Assembly: GCA_000002435.2 (NCBI GenBank)
Contig: CM018792.1
Source: Giardia intestinalis
Taxonomy: Eukaryota
Strand: one strand, 5' to 3'
Length of the DNA stretch: 64,000 nt
This document shows positions 55,634 through 63,764 of the stretch, in pieces. Numbering within the stretch: the first letter of the stretch is position 1; the number at the start of each line of letters is the position of its first letter. The notes beneath the pieces were generated by a model. That model worked only from the letters and a program-made list of their open reading frames with translations, made no database searches and was not told where the DNA came from. Position numbers and translations under genes: made by a program.

Positions 55634-55751
55634 CCGTGTCAGGAAGGTATGGCGCTTTCCATGACGATCCTTCTGCGTTTGCCTCGACGCGCGTCGGTAT
55701 TGCAGGCCTGGGCTAATGTCTAGTAAATAAATTATTACCTTGGAGTTTGCC

Positions 55752-58700
55752 ATGTATCGCGCGGGTGAGCACACGCTGATGAAGCTGAATCACGTTATAA
55801 TTCGCTCGATCTCCACGGCGGGAGGGAACTATTGGCCGCACATAGATACAGAGGCCTCCAGGGACATCGTCCCCATCGCCCCCCACTGCCTCATCTCCGT
55901 GCGTACAGTCCTCCAGGGAACCCTTTTAGTGACTAATATGCGTGTTTTCTTATTAACACAAGAGCGCCAGCTGAACTTTGGATTCCCTATTCATCACATA
56001 GCAAAGCTGGAAATGTCTGGCGGTGAAAGCAATGTTGCCCTGACCACGTTCTCTATCCGGTTGGTGACCCCCCACTTGATCATTCTTTCCGCACATTCTA
56101 GTGCAGTCCAATGTGTTGTGGAGCTTCTCAAGCGCATCAATGTCACACCCACTCTGTCTCGCTACTCATCGACCATCACCCAGGCTGTTTCTCGGTTTAC
56201 AGAAGCCACTCCGCACATAGCTGCATCATATGATGGGCTCTACTATCAGGTGCCTATCCCGCACACCATTTACTTCAGCAAGGATCCTGTGCAATCGTTT
56301 ATCTACTCAGCACCACACGAGAAGCTTATGCAGGCGTTTCGCAAGAACCCAGCACTAGAAGCTTTCCTTGGCGAGGCAGACAGCATGATGTTGGATAATG
56401 TGACCCACTTTCCCAGCCTGGGCCACTCTATCTTTGATCCTATTCGAGAGTTCCGCAGAATGGGGGTTCAGATGACCCACCCTACCCCTGCTCAACTTAG
56501 TAAGATGATCTTTGGGGCCAGCATCCATCCGGATCTACTATCGTACTTACTGAAGTTCAAGCCTGTTAGGTCTATGGACTACTTCAACGACGCTGGAATC
56601 CTAATGGGGTCTTGCCGCGGGTCAGTGTGCTGCACGAGATTTAATTCTGGTGTATCTGACTTCTACGAGAAGATGCGTATGACAGCCTTCTATGACCCGT
56701 TCCTACTTTTCGATACACCAGAACAGTTTTATTGCTTGTTGAACTACCATCCACAAGCAACTCAGAGTAATTTCGGTGCTGTCACCTACAGGTCCGGTCA
56801 GGCAGGAGATGATATCATGAACGAAGAAGATGCTGAAGACGATGGGTCTGGAGCTCCACGTCCCCAGCCATCGTCGTTTCTATCAAAGCTTAAGAGCGGT
56901 TTTTCACCAGCCTCCAATACTGGGAGCGCGACTACATCGGCCGTCCCAACTTACAACTTCACGTTGCAAGATAGACAGACAGGAACATATCTGTATGCCC
57001 ATGGATGCTTCTTTGAGCCTACGTTCTTCCGTTGTGAACCTCATATGCGCCACTACATCAAGGCTCTCCTTGCTGTTGTAATACCTCCATATATAGACAG
57101 CACACATGAGCCTCCCATGCGCCCCCAGGAACTAGCACGAGATGGTTGGAACATTTCGTGGACCAATTGTGTTTACGAGAACTCGCCAACATATCCTGCG
57201 GTGTTAGCTGTTCCTGACACGGTCAACGACAGCATTGTCTTGGGGTCCATGAAGTTCAGGTCTAAAGGCCGCTTCTGTGCTCTTTCATGGCGGTCTCCCG
57301 TGACTGGGGCCGCTCTCTGTCGTTGCTCACAGCCTGGCGGTGGGTTTGGCCTGTCTAGAAGCTCAGATGACGAGGCTCTTTTGCGCGCCGTTTGCAACGC
57401 TCCGCCGTCCACCGACACACGGAACCTCCTTTTTGTTTTTGATGCTAGGCCCCATCTGGCTGCATTTGCCAACAGGCTCACTGGCAAGGGCTTCGAATCC
57501 ACGCGCGCATATCCATTCTCTAGAACTATCTATTTGAACATACAGAACATCCACGTGGTTCGTGACAGCTATGAGGCCATGCGCAAGGCTGCACTAGAGT
57601 TTATCCTCACCAGAGAGGCAAACTTCAGGGGCATTCTAGACACATCGGAGGATAAAGTGCAAGGCAATTATGATTATAACATTCAGAATGCGAGAAATCT
57701 ACTCGAAAGTGTGGCCTCCACGAAGTCTGTCATATTCAAGACAGGAAAGGAGTCTAACTGGTATAGCCACATCCAGACCATCATGGCGGGTGCATGCATG
57801 ATCTGTGAGTGCCTCACGAAGCTTCGTTGTCATGCGATGATACACTGCTCCGATGGCTGGGATCGAACGTCTCAACTGAGCTCCCTTGCGATGCTACTTC
57901 TGGATCCTTATTACAGGACCCTTCGAGGGTTTTGCATCCTCATCGAGAAAGAGTGGCGTTCTTTTGGGCACATGTTTGCCACCCGTTGTAAGCAGGAAGG
58001 CAGTACAAAGGCCAGCACTAGGAAGGAGGACAAAAAGGCCAAACCCTTTAATGTACTCGCAGCAGCATACAGTCAGATGCTAGGGCACCACAATGCTTAC
58101 CAGCAGGGGCCGGATGCACCTCTCCAGGGAACTGTGTATGCACCAATTGTGATCAACCCTAGTTACGCTGGTCCTATCGGCCCGGCCCCAGGACCTGCAA
58201 TGAGTCCTACAATAGGCTCTGCGATGTTCTCGGGCCCAGTGCCCTTTAGCTCGAGTGCGCCCCTCCCCGGCGCAGCTATAAGCGGAAGCCAGGGACCACA
58301 GGGTGCAAGCTATACTAATCAAGGCATCAATCTAGGCCAGCCATCGATACCATCTCAGGGACTCTTGAGGACGCATCTGGCTGATGCCTTTGATAGCGTG
58401 GACACATCTCCAATCCCAGAGGTGCCTCTATCTAACTTAGACTTTTCTAGCTCTCAATCGTCTCCCATCTTTTTACAGTGGTTGGAGTGCGTGTATCAAG
58501 TTATGCACCAGCGCGCTGACGAGTTTGAATTCAACGATAAAGTGTTACTATACATAGCACACCACGCATACTCCGGCTGGCATGGAACATTTATTTTTGA
58601 CAACGAACGGGATAGAACCCAGCACCTCCTATCAACCATAACGACCTCTGTATGGGATGAATTTATCACCAATTCAGCTTATTATCTTAACCCGCACTAT

Positions 58701-58829
58701 AAGATACCGGCTCCTTTGAATGTCATGAAGACACGAACGGGGCTGGAATATATGCACATTTCATGTAGTATGCGAAAGATGACTCCGTGGAGCGCCTACT
58801 GGTCACAAGTAGCGGCATTCCACGAATAG
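55752..58829 (+). CDS. Myotubularin-family phosphoinositide 3-phosphatase (active; N-terminal GRAM/PH-like region and C-terminal Pro/Gly-rich extension)
   Basis: The ORF-track start at 55740 is TTG. The first ATG lies 4 codons in (MYRAGEH). The catalytic loop [45 protein letters not shown] is near-identical in pattern to MTM1 [46 protein letters not shown], with intact CX5R. Confidence 0.85.
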   Translation: [1025 protein letters not shown]

Positions 58830-58842
58830 AAAAGCAAGAGCT

Positions 58843-59250
58843 CTACTTCACCGCAAATGAGTGCGGTACGGGAGGAATAACTGCTACACGAGGCTTTACT
58901 GTTGCCAAGTGCTTGTAGACAACTTCAAAAGCGGTAAAATTGAGGGGTACAGCCACGTCGCGATCATACAATGTTACTCCCGTCGCAGTTGTATTTGCAT
59001 AGTCTTGCATCATCTTGTAAACATCTACATAGCTTAACGCATCCGGCAATTTTATGGCTTCAAGGATTTGCACTAGTTCTTCGCGCTTGTGCACCTCAAG
59101 AGTAGCACTTGATGCATTAGGCCCGGTGCTGGAGCATGGAGTGCCACCGAGCACCGCTTCTACGGTGGCAGAGATAGCCCCTATAAAGGCCTGCTCCTCT
59201 AAGCCGCTTGTATGCCTAGAGGACTGCATGTAAGAGTTGGAAGTTTGCAT
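58843..59250 (-). CDS. Hypothetical small protein (135 aa from ATG at 59250; alternative ATG at 59229)
   Basis: The ORF-track start at 59301 is GTG. There are in-frame ATGs at 59250 and 59229. It is divergent from the WD gene at 59258. The sequence is non-repetitive. No family is recognised. Confidence 0.45.
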   Translation of the reverse strand: MQTSNSYMQSSRHTSGLEEQAFIGAISATVEAVLGGTPCSSTGPNASSATLEVHKREELVQILEAIKLPDALSYVDVYKMMQDYANTTATGVTLYDRDVAVPLNFTAFEVVYKHLATVKPRVAVIPPVPHSFAVK

Positions 59251-59257
59251 TTTTTTG
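59251..59257. promoter_or_regulatory. 7-nt T-rich spacer between divergent ATGs (CAT ttttttg ATG)
   Basis: Read directly. If the minus gene instead starts at 59229, the spacer is 28 nt. Confidence 0.4.
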
Positions 59258-60238
59258 ATGATTGCTGCTGGTGTCCGGCTGGCGCTCAAACACACGATCA
59301 CGTGTCACAGAGCTCCAGTGACGAGCATGATCTACGACGAGAGTGGCTCAGTGCTCTTCTCTGGCTCTGCTGATGGAACCGTCTCGGTGCACGCAGTGGA
59401 TGCAAATCCTAATCAGGAGCCGAAGTTCCTGCACCGCCTCCACCGAAACCAGGCAAAGGGTATCAATGCCCTGGCATGGTCGGCTAATAGAGTTTTGGCA
59501 GCTGGCGACGATTGCGCTGTTCTATGGGACATAAACGTCCAAAAGCCGATGCTCACGCTTACTGACCATACGCTTCCTGTCACCGACTGTGACATCTACG
59601 AAAACTTTGCGCTAACATCATCTGCTGACCAGACCATCAGCCTTGTGGACATGCGCCAAGGGAAGCCCATTTCGACCATGCGAGCCCACACCGGCGCTGT
59701 TCTTTCGTGTCGTTTACTCACAAAACTGGAGATCTTAGGTCAGGGAGGCGTTGCGGCCCTTAGCGGTGGTGTAGATGGAATGCTCAAACTTTGGAACGCT
59801 GTTCAGGGTAATACACTAGTAACAATCAAGCCGGCCAAACCAATCTCTAGCATAAAAGTTTCGCCCAACGAAAAATATGCTTTGTGCATGCACGTAGGAG
59901 CGGGCGTCGTGCTCCATACTCTTCCCACTGACACACAAGGTCTCGAGCTGCGCAAGGTGAAAGAGTACTCTGTTCATGACAGTACGGACTATCTCTTGCC
60001 AGCAAACTACATGTGGCTGAAGGACAACAAAACACAGATGGTCGTTTGCGGAAGCAGCAAAAATCAAATTGTGATCTATGATATTAAGAGATCGGATCGG
60101 ATGCTAATAGAGCCGATTCCTTTATCGAGCCCGCCCCTTGCAATTGCCTCCTCGTCCAACAGCCAGCTTCTTGGGGTCGGGTGCATGGACGCTAGGATCC
60201 AGCTATTTGATATAATCACGGAATGGCCCAGTGCTTAG
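59258..60238 (+). CDS. WD40-repeat protein (326 aa, ~7 blades)
   Basis: The ORF-track start at 59237 is TTG. ATG MIAAGVRLALKHTITCHRAPVTSMIYDESGSVLFSGSADGTVSVHAV begins a canonical first WD blade. Further blades: LAAGDDCAVLWDI, LTSSADQTISLVDM, LSGGVDGMLKLWN. It is preceded by a T-rich initiator (gcatttttttgATG). Confidence 0.7.
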   Translation: MIAAGVRLALKHTITCHRAPVTSMIYDESGSVLFSGSADGTVSVHAVDANPNQEPKFLHRLHRNQAKGINALAWSANRVLAAGDDCAVLWDINVQKPMLTLTDHTLPVTDCDIYENFALTSSADQTISLVDMRQGKPISTMRAHTGAVLSCRLLTKLEILGQGGVAALSGGVDGMLKLWNAVQGNTLVTIKPAKPISSIKVSPNEKYALCMHVGAGVVLHTLPTDTQGLELRKVKEYSVHDSTDYLLPANYMWLKDNKTQMVVCGSSKNQIVIYDIKRSDRMLIEPIPLSSPPLAIASSSNSQLLGVGCMDARIQLFDIITEWPSA

Positions 60239-60445
60239 CTTGGCATTGTGGTTCCTTTATGTGAGGGGTGCACTCTTGGAGCTATTTGGACGCCTTGAGA
60301 TACCCGGCTTTCAAGTAGAGTGGGACAGTAAATGACCCAGAGAGTAAAACACCCCGCTCTGGGCAAAGTCTAGGGTAGGATGGTCGACTAGGGTTCCACT
60401 TAGTGATAGCATTCCTGCGCTGCACAGGGGCGCGTCTAACTAAAT

Positions 60446-60766
60446 TTACTCATCGTTATCGTCGTTGTCATCTTCGTCTTGGGATGTCTTGGCAGCAAAA
60501 CGGCTTCCCCCCGCGGCAGGTGGGTTCGGCTTTCCTGCAGTCTCCTTTGTTATGTCCTTGTTGAAGTAAGCACTAGGCTGGGTCTCTCCTCTACCTTGCT
60601 TCAAGATGAACTCTGCAGAGTCATAGAACCTTCCCTTGGACTGGGCAATCCTGCGCAGCGCAGCCGCTCTATTGAAGGGCACCCCGGCCTTCTTGGCCTC
60701 TGCCTCCTTCTTGTCCATCTCGCGCTGCAGCTCGTCAAGGTCCTCCTGACTCGGTCTATCAGTCAT
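60446..60766 (-). CDS. Endosulfine/ARPP-19-like small protein (106 aa)
   Basis: KGRFYDSAEF resembles the ENSA/ARPP19 core KYFDSGDY (the Greatwall site). The N-terminus is a charged helix. The acidic tail is DEDDNDDNDE. The ATG is preceded by ctagtaaaaaacgATG. Confidence 0.5.
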   Translation of the reverse strand: MTDRPSQEDLDELQREMDKKEAEAKKAGVPFNRAAALRRIAQSKGRFYDSAEFILKQGRGETQPSAYFNKDITKETAGKPNPPAAGGSRFAAKTSQDEDDNDDNDE

Positions 60767-60850
60767 CGTTTTTTACTAGAGAAATTACAGGCTAAAGAGA
60801 GCAGAAAAGGCCGAGGGTACATGCTGTGTCCATTTACTCAACAGAGAGGC

Positions 60851-61180
60851 TCACTTCTTCTGGGAGGAGTTGCGAGGAAAGCGCTTTGGTGGGGTGCGTA
60901 TCTTGCGGTCCTCGCGGGAGCGGACTCGAACGATATGATTGTGGATGGAGCACGACACACAGTACTGGACCTTGTTGTAGAGCTTGGGGATGGCGAACCC
61001 CTGAATCACGCACGCGTTGAGGACATCGTCTGCAATAGTATTGTCCACTATATTGCGAATGGTGAATCTCTTAATTACTTTGTCCTTGGGAACGCAGCGG
61101 TGGCAGTTCTGACAGCGAACGATGTTCGTGTGTCCGCAGTTATATTTTGAGCGTCCGTTGTTGCGTCTTTTAACAGGCAT
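60851..61180 (-). CDS. RPS26: 40S ribosomal protein S26e
   Basis: The ORF-track start at 61207 is TTG. The ATG at 61180 gives [45 protein letters not shown]...[34 protein letters not shown]. Human RPS26 is [45 protein letters not shown]...[34 protein letters not shown]. Confidence 0.9.
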
Positions 61181-61450
61181 GTCGCGAGTCCAAAAAAGAA
61201 AATGCAAGAAGTGGAATTAAAATTATTACGGGCGTTGTTTTTGCTTGCAGAGTGACGCCGAGACAACGCGGAGAAAACGTAGCATCAGAGAAAGGTGGTC
61301 GCTGATGATCTTCCAGTCACGGTCCAGTCATGGTACTGACCACAGATAAAGTGCTGCGCTGCACTTGTTACGACACTAAACTGTGTGGCTCAGGCGGTTC
61401 AAAATCAAACGGTTCAAAATATAATTATCCTCTTTACTACCCGTTGCTAC

Positions 61451-62272
61451 ATGCAGCAAGCTCAACAGAAGCCATTCATCCCAACCATCCCTGCTTATCA
61501 GGCGCTGAAGCTGGATGAAGATCTTATAAACAAGTGCAATTATTCTATAGAGCAGCTGATGGAGATTGCTGGCACAGCCGTTGCTCAGGCGACTACTCAT
61601 TATATAGAGTCAACCTCATCGGTGTCTAAGGCTGGGGTGCTGGTCGTCTGTGGCCCAGGGAACAACGGAGGAGACGGCCTGGTGGCTGCTAGGCATCTCT
61701 CCTCTGGGTCCATGAGCAGTGCCACCGTCCGCGTATGGCTGCCTAAAGAACCAAGTTCCTCCGTGAACAAGCGGATGCTGTCTATTGCCAAGCATGCAGG
61801 AGTTGTTTTCATTAAAGACACCAATGAGGAGGCGTTGCACGCAATCTTGGAATTTATCAACTCGTGTGAAAGTTTTTACTTAGTAGATGCCATATTCGGC
61901 TTTTCTTTCCACGGAGGACCCATCAAGCCCCCGTACGACACAGTGATAAACACACTTCTGCAGATGCAGACGTCAATGGCCATCGGCCCCAAGACAAGGA
62001 TCGTCTCTGTTGATGTTCCATCTGGCTGGTCCGTGGATGCACAGGAATGGGGGCTGAATACTGACAAGGAACTAATACCAGACGGCCTGCTTCGTCCTGA
62101 CGCACTTATATCCCTTACGGTGCCAAAGAACTGTTCGCTGTGGCTACCTCCCGGTACAGCCCACTACCTGGGAGGCAACTTCCTGACTCCATTGCTTGCC
62201 ATGGAGTATGACGTGCAAGAGATCCAACACTATTGGAGCGGGGTGTCGTCTCTCTTTGTAGTCCTGTCCTGA
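61451..62272 (+). CDS. NAXE: NAD(P)H-hydrate epimerase (YjeF N-terminal domain; NAXE/AIBP family)
   Basis: The ORF-track start at 61385 is GTG. The ATG at 61451 (MQQAQQKPF) follows caaaatataattatcc. YjeF_N motifs are present: LMEIAGTAVAQA, VLVVCGPGNNGGDGLVAARHL, VDAIFGFSFHGGPIKPPYDTVINTL, VSVDVPSGW. Confidence 0.8.
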   Translation: MQQAQQKPFIPTIPAYQALKLDEDLINKCNYSIEQLMEIAGTAVAQATTHYIESTSSVSKAGVLVVCGPGNNGGDGLVAARHLSSGSMSSATVRVWLPKEPSSSVNKRMLSIAKHAGVVFIKDTNEEALHAILEFINSCESFYLVDAIFGFSFHGGPIKPPYDTVINTLLQMQTSMAIGPKTRIVSVDVPSGWSVDAQEWGLNTDKELIPDGLLRPDALISLTVPKNCSLWLPPGTAHYLGGNFLTPLLAMEYDVQEIQHYWSGVSSLFVVLS

Positions 62273-63168
62273 TCGTTATTGGTTTCATCGTCTTTGTGCT
62301 CATACATTTGTACTGCGTGGACATCCGGCCTGGTGACGACAACGATAGAGAGGAATGCAACGGCTATCAGGACCGCTGTTAGAGTATCAGATAGGAAGTG
62401 GGCTCCTGCTGACATGCGTGCTATGATCATCAGAATAATTCCTGAGATCCCCCACACGGCAACAACCGTCAACAAGAGCCCCATGACTATAGATAAGATG
62501 GTGAGTCCCAGCAGTCTTGGCGCCCAGTATGCTCTTATGAGTTCAAACAGTTGAATAATGTAGGCAACGGAGGGGAGGATGCAATATGCAGCGGCAGCTG
62601 TGTGCCCGGAAGGTGTAGAGCTCAGGGAGTGACTGCACTGGCTCCTTCCCAGATAAGGTGTAAATATAGCTTTGAATTCATACTTGCACGTCTCCAGGAG
62701 GATGCCAAACTCGTGAGTGTTGCGTGGCCGAGGCCTGCGAAGCAGTACTTTTAGGGCTATAACGACGGTTTGAACCGTTATGACATAGAAGCAGAAAGAT
62801 AGAGGAAAGTAGAGGTAGACACTTTTGTCCCGGGACCGCACAATGAAAAAGAGAATCCCGTAACAAAGCAATATGACGCTCAGAGGAAACAAAATGTATA
62901 TTAGAGGATACGTGTTGATGAATGATATTAATCCAACATTGTAAGGATTGGAGACGTAGATGCCTTCACTATTTATTGCTGATGAGAATGCAGATGCCAA
63001 CACCTGGTCCAAATTTGCCACACTCTCTCTAAACACATAAATAAAGATCAGCGTACTGAAGGACGCAACGCTTAAGACTATAGATCCCAGACCCGCGGTA
63101 GGTGAAGTCATACCGATCGGAACGTAATGAAGATACTGAATGCACGCCCTCACTACTAGTCTTTGCAT
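62230..63168 (-). CDS. PAP2-superfamily lipid phosphate phosphatase (LPP / dolichyl-PP phosphatase type), polytopic membrane protein
   Basis: Three PAP2 signature motifs are present. KVLLRRPRP (KxxxxxxRP), STPSGHT (PSGH) and ARMSAGAHFLSD (SRxxxxxHxxxD). It has ~6 TM helices. The 3' end overlaps the convergent NAXE gene by ~43 nt. Confidence 0.8.
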   Translation of the reverse strand: MQRLVVRACIQYLHYVPIGMTSPTAGLGSIVLSVASFSTLIFIYVFRESVANLDQVLASAFSSAINSEGIYVSNPYNVGLISFINTYPLIYILFPLSVILLCYGILFFIVRSRDKSVYLYFPLSFCFYVITVQTVVIALKVLLRRPRPRNTHEFGILLETCKYEFKAIFTPYLGRSQCSHSLSSTPSGHTAAAAYCILPSVAYIIQLFELIRAYWAPRLLGLTILSIVMGLLLTVVAVWGISGIILMIIARMSAGAHFLSDTLTAVLIAVAFLSIVVVTRPDVHAVQMYEHKDDETNNDQDRTTKRDDTPLQ

Positions 63169-63215: not shown

Positions 63216-63764
63216 ATGCAGGAGATGGAGAAGTGCATATATGTAGCTATCTGGGGGTTTACTGAGGCCAAAGAGAGCTTTATTAGCCATTTTGATAAAA
63301 CCGCAGCACCCCTCATACTAAGGGATGACCTCGACTTTGTCTATCTGCCCCTTGAAAATAAGGACTACTCGATGATGCTCTTCAATCTGCCGATGCGTGC
63401 TACGATCAAGGACACAGCTATTCAATACGTTATACATATCGCCCATGCACACCTGCTCATCGAGCCCAGCCTGGAAATAGCCAAAGTTATACAAGCCTGC
63501 ATGCCCCACTGCGACGGTTCTGGGCTTATTTACACATGGCATCGGCTGGACGCCGAGGCCTTGGGGCTTGAGCTGGTTACGGAGCCCAAGACGACCGAGG
63601 AGGCCGTCCAGCTCATGCACCTGATAGCCTCTAGAACCATAGAAAAGAATTTATTGCTTCCTCCAATCATAGAAGCGAAGCTTCCGGAGCCAATCAACAG
63701 AGACGTAGTCCCCGTGGATGAAATTCTAAAGGATAAAGACACGAAGCAACAGTGCAAGAAATGA
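63216..63764 (+). CDS. Hypothetical protein (182 aa); faint resemblance to a degenerate small-GTPase-like fold (no intact P-loop)
   Basis: The ATG is preceded by caagatttaaatttgataacatcacctagagATG. It is divergent from the PAP2 gene across a 47-nt spacer. AGTAAAT lies ~40 nt after the stop. Confidence 0.5.
   Translation: MQEMEKCIYVAIWGFTEAKESFISHFDKTAAPLILRDDLDFVYLPLENKDYSMMLFNLPMRATIKDTAIQYVIHIAHAHLLIEPSLEIAKVIQACMPHCDGSGLIYTWHRLDAEALGLELVTEPKTTEEAVQLMHLIASRTIEKNLLLPPIIEAKLPEPINRDVVPVDEILKDKDTKQQCKK

What the first reader, a model, noticed from the sequence alone, without database searches (positions are those of the whole stretch)
60446..61180. Endosulfine/ARPP-19-like protein with FYDSAEF core next to RPS26
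The Greatwall-ENSA-PP2A/B55 module controls mitotic entry. A 106-aa protein with a K-x-x-F-Y-D-S-A-E-F core (nt ~60608-60628, minus strand) and an acidic tail fits ENSA. A diverged phospho-site (DSAEF vs DSGDY) would be informative for Giardia cell-cycle wiring.
Basis: inference. Interest (0 to 1): 0.5.

Follow-up and report, generated by a model that had tools for sequence, protein, structure and literature searches.

The report
Divergent endosulfine-like protein of Giardia
A small, disordered, unannotated Giardia protein (GL50803_5258), conserved across Giardia's relatives, is probably a very diverged endosulfine/ARPP19-type inhibitor of the PP2A-B55 phosphatase, in an organism whose published kinase catalogue lists no Greatwall-type kinase to switch it on.

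Summary
A 106-aa ORF (60446-60766, minus strand) carries K-G-R-F-Y-D-S-A-E-F (FYDSAEF = nt 60628-60608) and an acidic tail. It lies 84 nt downstream of RPS26. It is Giardia duodenalis GL50803_5258, named "hypothetical" in every source, detected by mass spectrometry, with dN/dS 0.029 between assemblages.

The ENSA reading is partly supported. The Giardia protein gets no Pfam Endosulfine hit. It does belong to a family found across Fornicata with an invariant D-S-A core. Four slower-evolving members hit PF04667 as top or only Pfam match (E 0.002-0.04, below threshold). Profile-profile comparison with true ENSA gives 75% probability (P = 2.4e-5), more than 10 SD above column shuffles. The similarity is confined to about 32-35 columns, which correspond to ARPP19's B55-platform helix, kink, phospho-serine and following helix. 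AlphaFold predicts three helices colinear with ARPP19's.

Giardia has a PR55/B55 subunit (GL50803_4079) and PP2Ac. The published kinome lists no MAST/Greatwall-class kinase. My best reading (about 0.6) is a diverged ENSA-type PP2A-B55 inhibitor with an unidentified activating kinase. Binding, inhibition and Ser50 phosphorylation are untested.

The parts
60446..60766 (-). CDS of the ENSA-like protein (106 aa plus stop) = GL50803_5258
   Evidence: ORF. 100% identity to GL50803_005258. Detected by MS, dN/dS 0.029.
60686..60748 (-). Residues 7-27: N-terminal charged amphipathic helix, positional counterpart of ARPP19 helix alpha2 (fuzzy B55 contact)
   Evidence: AF2 helix 7-27, pLDDT about 90. hhalign places it opposite ENSA 'ekaeeaKLKakYp'. 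On its own it shows no significant similarity.
60641..60670 (-). Residues 33-42 (RAAALRRIAQ): basic amphipathic helix, candidate B55-platform helix (counterpart of the ARPP19 alpha3 SHELM F-L-R-x-R-L-x-K)
   Evidence: AF2 helix 33-42. L37, R38 and R39 are invariant or nearly invariant in the family. This region adds about 10 hhalign score units in register with the core. The SHELM is defined in PMC10765524.
60608..60637 (-). Residues 44-53 (K-G-R-F-Y-D-S-A-E-F): the ENSA-like core, counterpart of ARPP19 58-KYFDSGDY-65
   Evidence: Sequence. D49, S50 and A51 are invariant in 14 fornicate sequences. The eight core columns R46-F53 alone give hhalign score 17.8.
60617..60619 (-). Ser50 codon (tct): predicted regulatory phospho-site, equivalent to ENSA S67 / ARPP19 S62
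   Evidence: Alignment register from hhalign. Invariant in the family. Phosphorylation itself was not tested.
60563..60571 (-). Residues 66-68 (A-Y-F): family-specific conserved motif in the disordered C-terminal half
   Evidence: A66 is invariant and Y67/F68 nearly invariant. No counterpart in ENSA.
60497..60505 (-). Residues 88-90 (S-R-F): second family-specific C-terminal motif
   Evidence: Invariant in the five closest members and kept in most others.
60449..60478 (-). Residues 97-106 (DEDDNDDNDE): acidic tail, conserved as a feature in full-length fornicate orthologues
   Evidence: Alignments. Metazoan ENSA/ARPP19 has no such tail.
60444..60450 (-). AGTAAAT overlapping the stop codon: matches the Giardia polyadenylation signal AGTRAAY
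   Evidence: Sequence. The consensus is from my own knowledge of Giardia gene structure.
60767..60850 (-). 84-nt intergenic region between the RPS26 stop and the ENSA-like ATG, with an A-rich stretch (gtaaaaaacgATG) just before the start; presumed short promoter
   Evidence: Sequence. Promoter function is inferred.
60851..61180 (-). RPS26 CDS (109 aa plus stop): neighbour included in the finding, not functionally linked
   Evidence: Pfam Ribosomal_S26e E = 1.2e-48. The adjacency is kept in two Giardia-like contigs and not in Spironucleus.

Best explanation
GL50803_5258 is the Giardia representative of a fornicate-wide, highly diverged branch of the endosulfine/ARPP19/Igo family. These are small, intrinsically disordered regulators of PP2A-B55.

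Proposed mechanism, inferred by analogy with the ARPP19 cryo-EM structure:
- The basic amphipathic helix at residues 33-42 ([L/A]-L-R-R-I-A-Q) docks on the B55 platform of the Giardia PR55 subunit GL50803_4079.
- The R-F-Y-D-S-A-E-F kink places phospho-Ser50 over the PP2Ac (GL50803_5010) active site.
- The protein then acts as a tightly bound, slowly dephosphorylated pseudo-substrate that blocks other substrates.
- The family-specific C-terminal A-Y-F and S-R-F motifs and the acidic tail would take the place of ARPP19's C-terminal clamp.

The activating kinase is unknown, because no MAST/Greatwall-class kinase is catalogued in Giardia. The likely biological roles are control of mitotic phosphorylation and/or the proliferation-to-encystation switch.

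Shown: gene, expression, conservation, sequence and profile similarity to the ENSA core, helix colinearity, and the existence of B55 and PP2Ac. Inferred: binding, inhibition, Ser50 phosphorylation, and the biological role.
For: - The family spans Giardia A/B/E, Spironucleus, Hexamita, Dysnectes, Aduncisulcus, Kipferlia and Chilomastix. D-S-A is invariant and L-R-R nearly so.
- PF04667 is the top or only Pfam hit for four members, with library-wide E = 0.0024-0.041, covering the motif region. True metazoan ENSAs score only 32-37 bits on that model.
- hhalign gives probability 75%, P = 2.4e-5 and score 33.7. Shuffles give 10.5 +/- 2.2 (maximum 19.4) and the reversed alignment 15.6.
- An ENSA HMM hits P0016, P0010, P0008, P0009 and P0015 at E = 7e-5 to 5e-3 with Z = 5000. 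The fornicate HMM hits Drosophila Endos at 19.9 bits, E = 2.5e-4.
- The score builds up in register over about 32-35 columns: core 17.8, plus the upstream helix 28.3, plus the downstream helix 31.3. These columns equal ARPP19 alpha3-kink-pS62-alpha4, which contact B55 and PP2Ac.
- Six of the seven residues at positions equivalent to ARPP19 K58, Y59, F60, D61, S62, D64 and Y65 (whose mutation alters inhibition) are kept or conservatively replaced throughout the family (F/Y, Y/F, D, S, E/D, Y/F); the K58-equivalent position is R in Giardia but K or Q in other members.
- AF2 predicts helices 7-27, 33-42 and 48-57 and a disordered C-terminal half. At an offset of 12 residues these are colinear with ARPP19 alpha2 25-34, alpha3 46-55 and alpha4 62-75.
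- Physico-chemical profile is like ENSA: 11.8 kDa, GRAVY -1.3, no Cys or Trp.
- B55 (GL50803_4079, IPR000009 PR55, 472 aa) and PP2Ac are expressed.
- PP2Ac is implicated in encystation and excystation. GL50803_5258 was among genes selected as more highly expressed in encysting in vivo foci. In yeasts the Greatwall-endosulfine switch governs quiescence and differentiation.
Against: - No family member reaches the Pfam gathering score (best 18.3 bits against 29.8), and the Giardia protein gives no hit at all.
- BLASTP against human ENSA does not align the core.
- PDB-wide profile searches do not list ARPP19 or ENSA, and the best chance hit there (13.6 bits) equals what vertebrate ARPP19 scores.
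- With the 8-residue core removed, neither flank is similar on its own (P = 0.33 and 0.88). The evidence therefore rests on about 32-35 columns and could reflect motif convergence.
- The two ARPP19 residues most critical for B55 binding, R52 and L53, align with I and A.
- The C-terminal half has no ENSA counterpart and no PKA site.
- No MAST/Greatwall-class kinase is catalogued in Giardia.
- No phosphoproteomic or interaction data were found.
Confidence: 0.6

Rival explanations
1. This is an unrelated, fornicate-specific small acidic disordered protein of some other function. Its [FY][FY]-D-S-A-[ED]-[YF] segment resembles the endosulfine core by chance or convergence and does not target PP2A-B55.
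For: All statistical similarity sits in about 32-35 columns, and the flanks alone are not similar. There is no Pfam hit above threshold for any member. PDB-wide searches do not recover ARPP19. The conserved A-Y-F and S-R-F motifs and the acidic tail have no ENSA equivalent. No Greatwall/MAST kinase is catalogued.
Against: Four orthologues independently pick the same Pfam family as their best or only hit over the same region. The hhalign score is more than 10 SD above shuffles. The upstream helix adds score in register with the core. Helix order and spacing match ARPP19. The conserved residues are those that ARPP19 uses at the active site. No alternative family was suggested by any search.
Confidence: 0.25
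2. It is a true endosulfine relative that no longer works as a phospho-switch. It binds PP2A-B55 constitutively as a weak competitor or substrate-like adaptor, or has been re-used for another partner through its acidic tail. Ser50 would be conserved for structural reasons only.
For: The published kinome lists no MAST/Greatwall-class kinase. Unphosphorylated ARPP19 binds PP2A-B55 tightly, and phosphorylation does not change the binding. FAM122A inhibits without phosphorylation (synopsis). The C-terminal half has been remodelled.
Against: The serine and its acidic and aromatic neighbours are invariant across a deep clade, as expected for a site read by both a kinase and a phosphatase. Unphosphorylated ARPP19 inhibits only moderately.
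Confidence: 0.1
3. It is a secreted Giardia effector, as its listing in the conserved 'secretome' (rank 6) would suggest.
For: It is enriched 2.8-fold in culture supernatant over pellet in both assemblages (PMC5887430).
Against: It has no predicted signal peptide. It is listed together with CKS1, another small soluble cell-cycle protein, which suggests leakage of small cytosolic proteins. It is conserved in free-living fornicates such as Kipferlia and Aduncisulcus, where a host-directed effector makes no sense. dN/dS is 0.029, unlike the fast-evolving secreted tenascins.
Confidence: 0.05

Closest known systems
Alpha-endosulfine / ARPP19 / Endos / Igo1-2 family (Pfam PF04667)
   Same: It is a protein of about 100 aa, free of Cys and Trp, and disordered with three helical stretches. 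A basic amphipathic helix lies about 5 residues upstream of a [KR]-aromatic-aromatic-D-S-small-acidic-aromatic core, followed by a helix. Its residues match those that ARPP19 places on B55 and in the PP2Ac active site.
   Different: The core is F-Y-D-S-A-E-F/Y (invariant Ala where ENSA has Gly, Glu for Asp, and the aromatic pair swapped). SHELM positions R52 and L53 are I and A. There is no C-terminal PKA site or crossover sequence; A-Y-F and S-R-F motifs and a poly-acidic tail stand in their place. It is below the Pfam threshold. No Greatwall/MAST kinase is catalogued in the host.
C. elegans ENSA-1 (an endosulfine in an animal without a recognisable Greatwall; that absence is from my own knowledge)
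   Same: It is a precedent for an endosulfine kept alongside B55 without an obvious Greatwall. The worm protein is also mostly unfolded, sharing three helical stretches with ARPP19 (PMC10943098).
   Different: The worm protein is a recognised ENSA orthologue; that it keeps the canonical FDSGDY core is from my own knowledge. The fornicate family is not recognisable as ENSA by standard annotation.
FAM122A / PABIR1 (phosphorylation-independent PP2A-B55 inhibitor)
   Same: It is a disordered inhibitor that uses helical motifs on B55 and reaches the PP2Ac active site.
   Different: FAM122A is defined by an [RK]-V-x-x-[VI]-R motif (PMC11233601 abstract). GL50803_5258 has a single Val (V29, preceded by Gly) and no such motif (sequence).
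Bod1 (PP2A-B56 inhibitor, reported as ENSA/ARPP19-like; PMC3826647 listed; details from my own knowledge)
   Same: It is a small phospho-regulated PP2A inhibitor with local similarity to the ENSA core.
   Different: Bod1 is a folded COMPASS-Shg1 domain protein, phosphorylated by CDK1 on Thr, and it targets B56. No such Pfam domain is seen here.

Membership tests
Endosulfine/ARPP19/Igo (PF04667) | Match to the Pfam Endosulfine model at or above the gathering score (29.8 bits) | tested here: not met
   The Giardia protein gives no hit at E <= 10. The best family members score 18.3, 17.2, 16.5 and 14.4 bits. The model is weak for non-fungal members: human ENSA scores 34.9 bits and yeast Igo1 115 bits.
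Endosulfine/ARPP19/Igo (PF04667) | Core block (B55-platform helix, kink, phospho-Ser, helix) alignable with an ENSA profile beyond chance | tested here: met
   hhalign gives probability 75%, P = 2.4e-5 and score 33.7, against 200 shuffles at 10.5 +/- 2.2, maximum 19.4. HMM hits in both directions have E = 7e-5 to 5e-3 at Z = 5000. Caveats: the probability is below 95%, the ENSA set was narrow, and the signal is confined to about 32-35 columns.
Endosulfine/ARPP19/Igo (PF04667) | Invariant Greatwall site K-Y-F-D-S-G-D-Y | tested here: inconclusive
   Giardia has R-F-Y-D-S-A-E-F. Across the family the pattern is [RKQ]-[FY]-[FY]-D-S-A-[ED]-[YF] (one member has Ile at the acidic position), with D, S and A invariant. 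In Giardia every position is identical or conservative, but G to A is fixed. I could not check whether A occurs at this position in accepted ENSAs.
Endosulfine/ARPP19/Igo (PF04667) | Small, heat-stable-type intrinsically disordered protein with helical propensities and no globular fold | tested here: met
   106 aa, GRAVY -1.3, no Cys or Trp. AF2 predicts three helices and a disordered C-terminal half. Foldseek against PDB finds no match with E < 6.
Endosulfine/ARPP19/Igo (PF04667) | B55-binding short helical motif F-L-R-x-R-L-x-K (ARPP19 48-55) | tested here: inconclusive
   The aligned segment is [L/A]-L-R-R-I-A-Q-S. The hydrophobic i, i+1, i+4, i+5 pattern and the R50 equivalent are kept. 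The critical R52 and L53, and K55, are not. A helix is predicted at 33-42.
Endosulfine/ARPP19/Igo (PF04667) | C-terminal regulatory tail (PKA site R-K-x-S; crossover and B55 site-3 binding) | tested here: not met
   The C-terminal halves are not alignable (hhalign P = 0.88). There is no R-K-x-S. A-Y-F and S-R-F motifs and an acidic tail are present instead.
Endosulfine/ARPP19/Igo (PF04667) | Phosphorylation of the core serine by a Greatwall/MASTL/Rim15 (or MAST) kinase | not testable with these tools
   The Giardia kinome paper lists seven AGC kinases (PDK1, Akt, two PKA, FPK, two unclassified NDR) and states that MAST is lost. Greatwall is not mentioned (PMC3218828). No phosphoproteome with this protein was found.
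Endosulfine/ARPP19/Igo (PF04667) | Presence of the target: a PP2A holoenzyme with a B55/PR55 subunit | tested here: met
   Literature only. GL50803_4079 is 'PP2A regulatory subunit B', 472 aa, with IPR000009 (PR55) plus WD40, and was quantified by MS (PMC5913674 supplements). PP2Ac is GL50803_5010. The WD40 gene next door (59237-60238) is WDR5-like, not B55.
Endosulfine/ARPP19/Igo (PF04667) | Physical binding to and inhibition of PP2A-B55 | not testable with these tools
   No complex prediction or experiment was available.
FAM122A/PABIR | [RK]-V-x-x-[VI]-R B55-binding motif | tested here: not met
   The only Val in the protein is V29, in A-G-V-P (sequence). The motif comes from the PMC11233601 abstract.

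The most novel reading that the evidence does not exclude
Fornicata, including Giardia, kept the endosulfine-B55 half of the mitotic and quiescence switch but lost Greatwall/MAST. The invariant Ser50 would then be phosphorylated by a different kinase. Candidates are one of the two unclassified NDR-like AGC kinases or a member of the hugely expanded NEK family, since the motif has an aromatic residue at -3. The remodelled C-terminus (A-Y-F, S-R-F, acidic tail) would replace ARPP19's C-terminal clamp. This would be a rewired PP2A-B55 switch in a eukaryote that, from my own knowledge, also lacks the APC/C and a conventional spindle checkpoint, and it might couple division to encystation.
Probability: 0.3. 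Interest if true: 0.7.

Novelty: new variant of a known kind. Interest (0 to 1): 0.5.

Why it matters
Giardia's cell-cycle control is poorly understood, and from my own knowledge it is missing several canonical parts. PP2A is already implicated in encystation and excystation. A candidate PP2A-B55 inhibitor gives a concrete, testable handle: one serine, one helix and one known B55 subunit. It bears on how mitotic phosphorylation and the switch to the cyst stage are controlled.

It would also extend the endosulfine family into Metamonada. It would provide a natural case of an endosulfine working without a recognisable Greatwall, which is informative about which kinase-substrate links in this module are ancestral.

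On the practical side, an abundant "hypothetical" protein currently listed in the Giardia secretome would be re-annotated as a probable intracellular regulator.

Tried and rejected
- Direct tests on the Giardia protein were negative: Pfam, BLASTP against human ENSA, and phmmer/hmmsearch against PDB sequences with 1, 5 or 14 sequences.
- The whole-library profile search (1.84 billion representatives) and two word-indexed searches found only fornicate relatives, and no bridging sequences to canonical ENSA.
- The third homology search, with an ENSA alignment, returned only vertebrate and Drosophila sequences in the 120 rows shown. The ENSA profile was therefore narrow.
- Foldseek of the AF2 model against PDB gave nothing meaningful, as expected for a disordered protein.
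- I tested whether the neighbouring WD40 gene could be B55. It is WDR5-like.
- I asked whether adjacency to RPS26 means anything. It is local synteny within Giardia-like genomes only.
- Literature searches for Giardia plus endosulfine, Greatwall, B55 or PR55 found nothing relevant.
- Lauwaet 2007 and 2011 are not held.
- No Giardia phosphoproteome containing this protein was found.
- The secreted-effector reading was rejected: no signal peptide, and orthologues in free-living relatives.
Full report
**What is there**

The window carries an ATG ORF of 106 codons at 60446..60766 on the minus strand. Reading the sequence, FYDSAEF occupies nt 60628-60608, with the Ser50 codon at 60619-60617. It is preceded by K44-G-R. 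The protein ends in DEDDNDDNDE.

Eighty-four nucleotides upstream on the same strand lies RPS26 (61180..60851; Pfam Ribosomal_S26e E = 1.2e-48). An AGTAAAT overlapping the stop codon fits the Giardia poly(A) signal, as I know it from the literature.

The pattern [KRQ][FY][FY]DS[GA][DE][FYW] occurs once in the 70,937 residues of all six-frame ORF segments in the window, in this ORF.

**Is it a gene**

Yes. The protein is 100% identical to GL50803_005258 of Giardia duodenalis (UniProt A8BR00). It is called hypothetical or uncharacterised in every source, as are all its relatives.

- A proteomic study found it abundant in cells and culture supernatant. It has no signal peptide, and dN/dS between assemblages A and B is 0.029 (PMC5887430).
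- It was one of 15 genes chosen for GFP tagging because they were differentially expressed in encysting in vivo foci (PMC5450421).
- A 223-codon ORF on the opposite strand (60479-61150) spans both genes and has no Pfam match. It is presumably spurious.

**The family**

Searches of 5.8 billion and 1.84 billion proteins found relatives only in Fornicata. These are Giardia assemblages, two Giardia-like assemblies, Spironucleus salmonicida, Hexamita inflata, Dysnectes brevis, Aduncisulcus paluster, Kipferlia bialata, Chilomastix caulleri and a few environmental sequences.

In 14 sequences R39, D49, S50, A51 and A66 are invariant. F31, N32, A35, L37, R38 and F68 are nearly so. The consensus is P-F-N-R-x-A-x-L-R-R-I-A-Q-x-K-G-[RQK]-[FY]-[FY]-D-S-A-E-Y-V-L-K-x-G ... 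A-Y-F ... S-R-F ... poly-D/E.

**Is it an endosulfine**

Tests on the Giardia protein alone are negative:
- no PF04667 hit at E <= 10;
- BLASTP against human ENSA does not align the core;
- an ENSA HMM gives 7.5 bits;
- PDB sequence searches do not list ARPP19 or ENSA.

Evidence at the family level is positive and consistent.

1. PF04667 is the best or only Pfam hit for four slower-evolving members: Aduncisulcus E = 0.0024, P0016 0.0053, Chilomastix 0.0091 and Kipferlia 0.041. These E-values are already corrected for the 24,736 models. Each match covers the D-S motif. The Pfam model is weak outside fungi. Human ENSA, ARPP19 and Drosophila Endos score only 32-37 bits against a cut-off of 29.8, while yeast Igo1 scores 115.
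2. hhalign of the 14-sequence fornicate profile against an ENSA profile gives probability 75%, P = 2.4e-5 and score 33.7. Two hundred column shuffles give 10.5 +/- 2.2 with a maximum of 19.4. The reversed alignment gives 15.6.
3. At a proteome-sized Z of 5000, the ENSA HMM hits five fornicate members at E = 7e-5 to 5e-3. The fornicate HMM hits Drosophila Endos at 19.9 bits (E = 2.5e-4) and vertebrate ARPP19/ENSA at 13-14.5 bits.

Limits of this evidence:
- With the eight core columns removed, neither flank is similar on its own (P = 0.33 and 0.88).
- The score builds up in register only over about 32-35 columns: core 17.8, plus 16 upstream columns 28.3, plus 12 downstream columns 31.3, full length 33.7.
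- A 14-bit hit is at noise level in a PDB-wide search.

I therefore cannot separate common descent from convergence of a roughly 30-residue module. No other family was suggested by any search.

**Comparison with the ARPP19 structure**

In the PP2A:B55-ARPP19 cryo-EM structure (PMC10765524), the contacts are:
- helix alpha2 (25-34) touches B55 loosely;
- helix alpha3 (46-SDFLRKRLQK-55, motif F-L-R-x-R-L-x-K) sits on the B55 platform;
- Y59, F60 and D61 splay at a kink;
- phospho-S62 sits over the PP2Ac metals, held by D61 and D64;
- helix alpha4 (62-75) runs along PP2Ac;
- the C-terminus clamps back on B55.

The hhalign register equates Giardia residue n with ARPP19 residue n+12:

| Giardia | ARPP19 |
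|---|---|
| L37-R38-R39-I40-A41 | L49-R50-K51-R52-L53 |
| R46-F47-Y48-D49-S50-A51-E52-F53 | K58-Y59-F60-D61-S62-G63-D64-Y65 |

Mutating K58, Y59, F60, D61, D64 or Y65 makes ARPP19 a fast substrate. At the Y59, F60, D61, S62, D64 and Y65 equivalents the fornicate family keeps or conservatively replaces the residue; the K58 equivalent is R in Giardia and K or Q elsewhere.

AlphaFold2 with the family alignment (mean pLDDT 71.6) predicts helices 7-27, 33-42 and 48-57 and a disordered C-terminal half. These are colinear with alpha2, alpha3 and alpha4. This agrees with the statement that human, Xenopus and worm ENSA/ARPP19 share three helical stretches.

The differences are:
- ARPP19's most critical platform residues R52 and L53 correspond to I and A, although the hydrophobic i, i+1, i+4, i+5 pattern and the R50 equivalent are kept;
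- Gly63 is an invariant Ala;
- the C-terminal half has no PKA site or crossover sequence, and instead carries A-Y-F, S-R-F and an acidic tail.

**Partners**

[quoted passage not shown] It is 472 aa and carries IPR000009 (PR55) plus WD40 signatures. The same supplement lists an EF-hand B''-type subunit (17538) and PP2Ac (5010) (PMC5913674). So the proposed target exists and is expressed.

The Giardia kinome paper lists seven AGC kinases: PDK1, Akt, two PKA, FPK and two unclassified NDR. It states that MAST has been lost and does not mention Greatwall (PMC3218828). By inference, no Greatwall-class kinase is known. I could not search the genome myself.

The WD40 gene convergent with the ENSA-like gene (59237-60238) is WDR5-like, not B55.

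**Surroundings**

The order RPS26, then the ENSA-like gene, then the convergent WD40 gene recurs in two Giardia-like contigs whose orthologues are 71% and 60% identical. It does not recur in Spironucleus. The RPS26 adjacency is therefore shallow synteny with no functional meaning.

**Conclusion**

The most likely reading (about 0.6) is a strongly diverged endosulfine-type regulator of PP2A-B55 that works through phospho-Ser50 as a slowly turned-over pseudo-substrate, with an unidentified kinase.

The rivals are:
- an unrelated disordered protein with a convergent motif (about 0.25);
- a true relative that no longer acts as a phospho-switch (about 0.1);
- a secreted effector (about 0.05), which the lack of a signal peptide and the orthologues in free-living fornicates argue against.

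Because the Pfam threshold, the C-terminal features and the kinase link are not met or not testable, I file it as a new variant that probably works like ENSA. I do not file it as a certified family member. Binding, inhibition, phosphorylation and phenotype remain to be shown.

Noticed in passing
window 59237-60238 (+): A canonical 7-blade-type WD40 protein, WDR5-like (PDB WDR5 E about 1e-19, generic WD40 Pfam hits). It is convergent with the ENSA-like gene, and their stop codons are about 200 nt apart. The same arrangement is seen in two Giardia-like contigs (L001, L003). It is not B55.
   Followed up: yes
window 61385-62272 (+) and 62230-63168 (-): A YjeF_N (NAD(P)HX epimerase-type) gene and a PAP2-superfamily phosphatase gene converge, and their ORFs overlap by 43 nt at the 3' ends. 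The same pair overlaps by 19 nt in locus L003 (1865-2791 and 2773-3558).
   Followed up: partly
window 55740-58829 (+): A 1029-aa ORF with a myotubularin-like phosphatase domain (PF06602, E = 1.3e-105). The same gene neighbours the ENSA-like/WD40 pair in locus L001.
   Followed up: partly
window 60479-61150 (+): A 223-codon ORF antisense to both the ENSA-like gene and RPS26, with no Pfam match. It is most likely a non-coding shadow ORF of the two real genes.
   Followed up: partly
GL50803_5258 in PMC5887430, Table 1: The protein ranks 6th in the published 'Giardia secretome', next to CKS1, although neither has a signal peptide. This suggests small soluble cytosolic proteins leak into supernatants, and that this secretome entry may not reflect true secretion.
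   Followed up: partly
P0012 (1562 aa): A long protein with five repeated stretches (...EWIPFNRLSNLRKIGDSK...) matched the P-F-N-R...L-R-R-I part of the fornicate profile at E = 8e-9. It lacks the D-S-A core and looks like an unrelated repeat protein. Origin unknown.
   Followed up: no
window 63216-63764 (+) and 58843-59301 (-): ORFs of 182 aa and 152 aa without any Pfam match. Their coding status was not examined.
   Followed up: no
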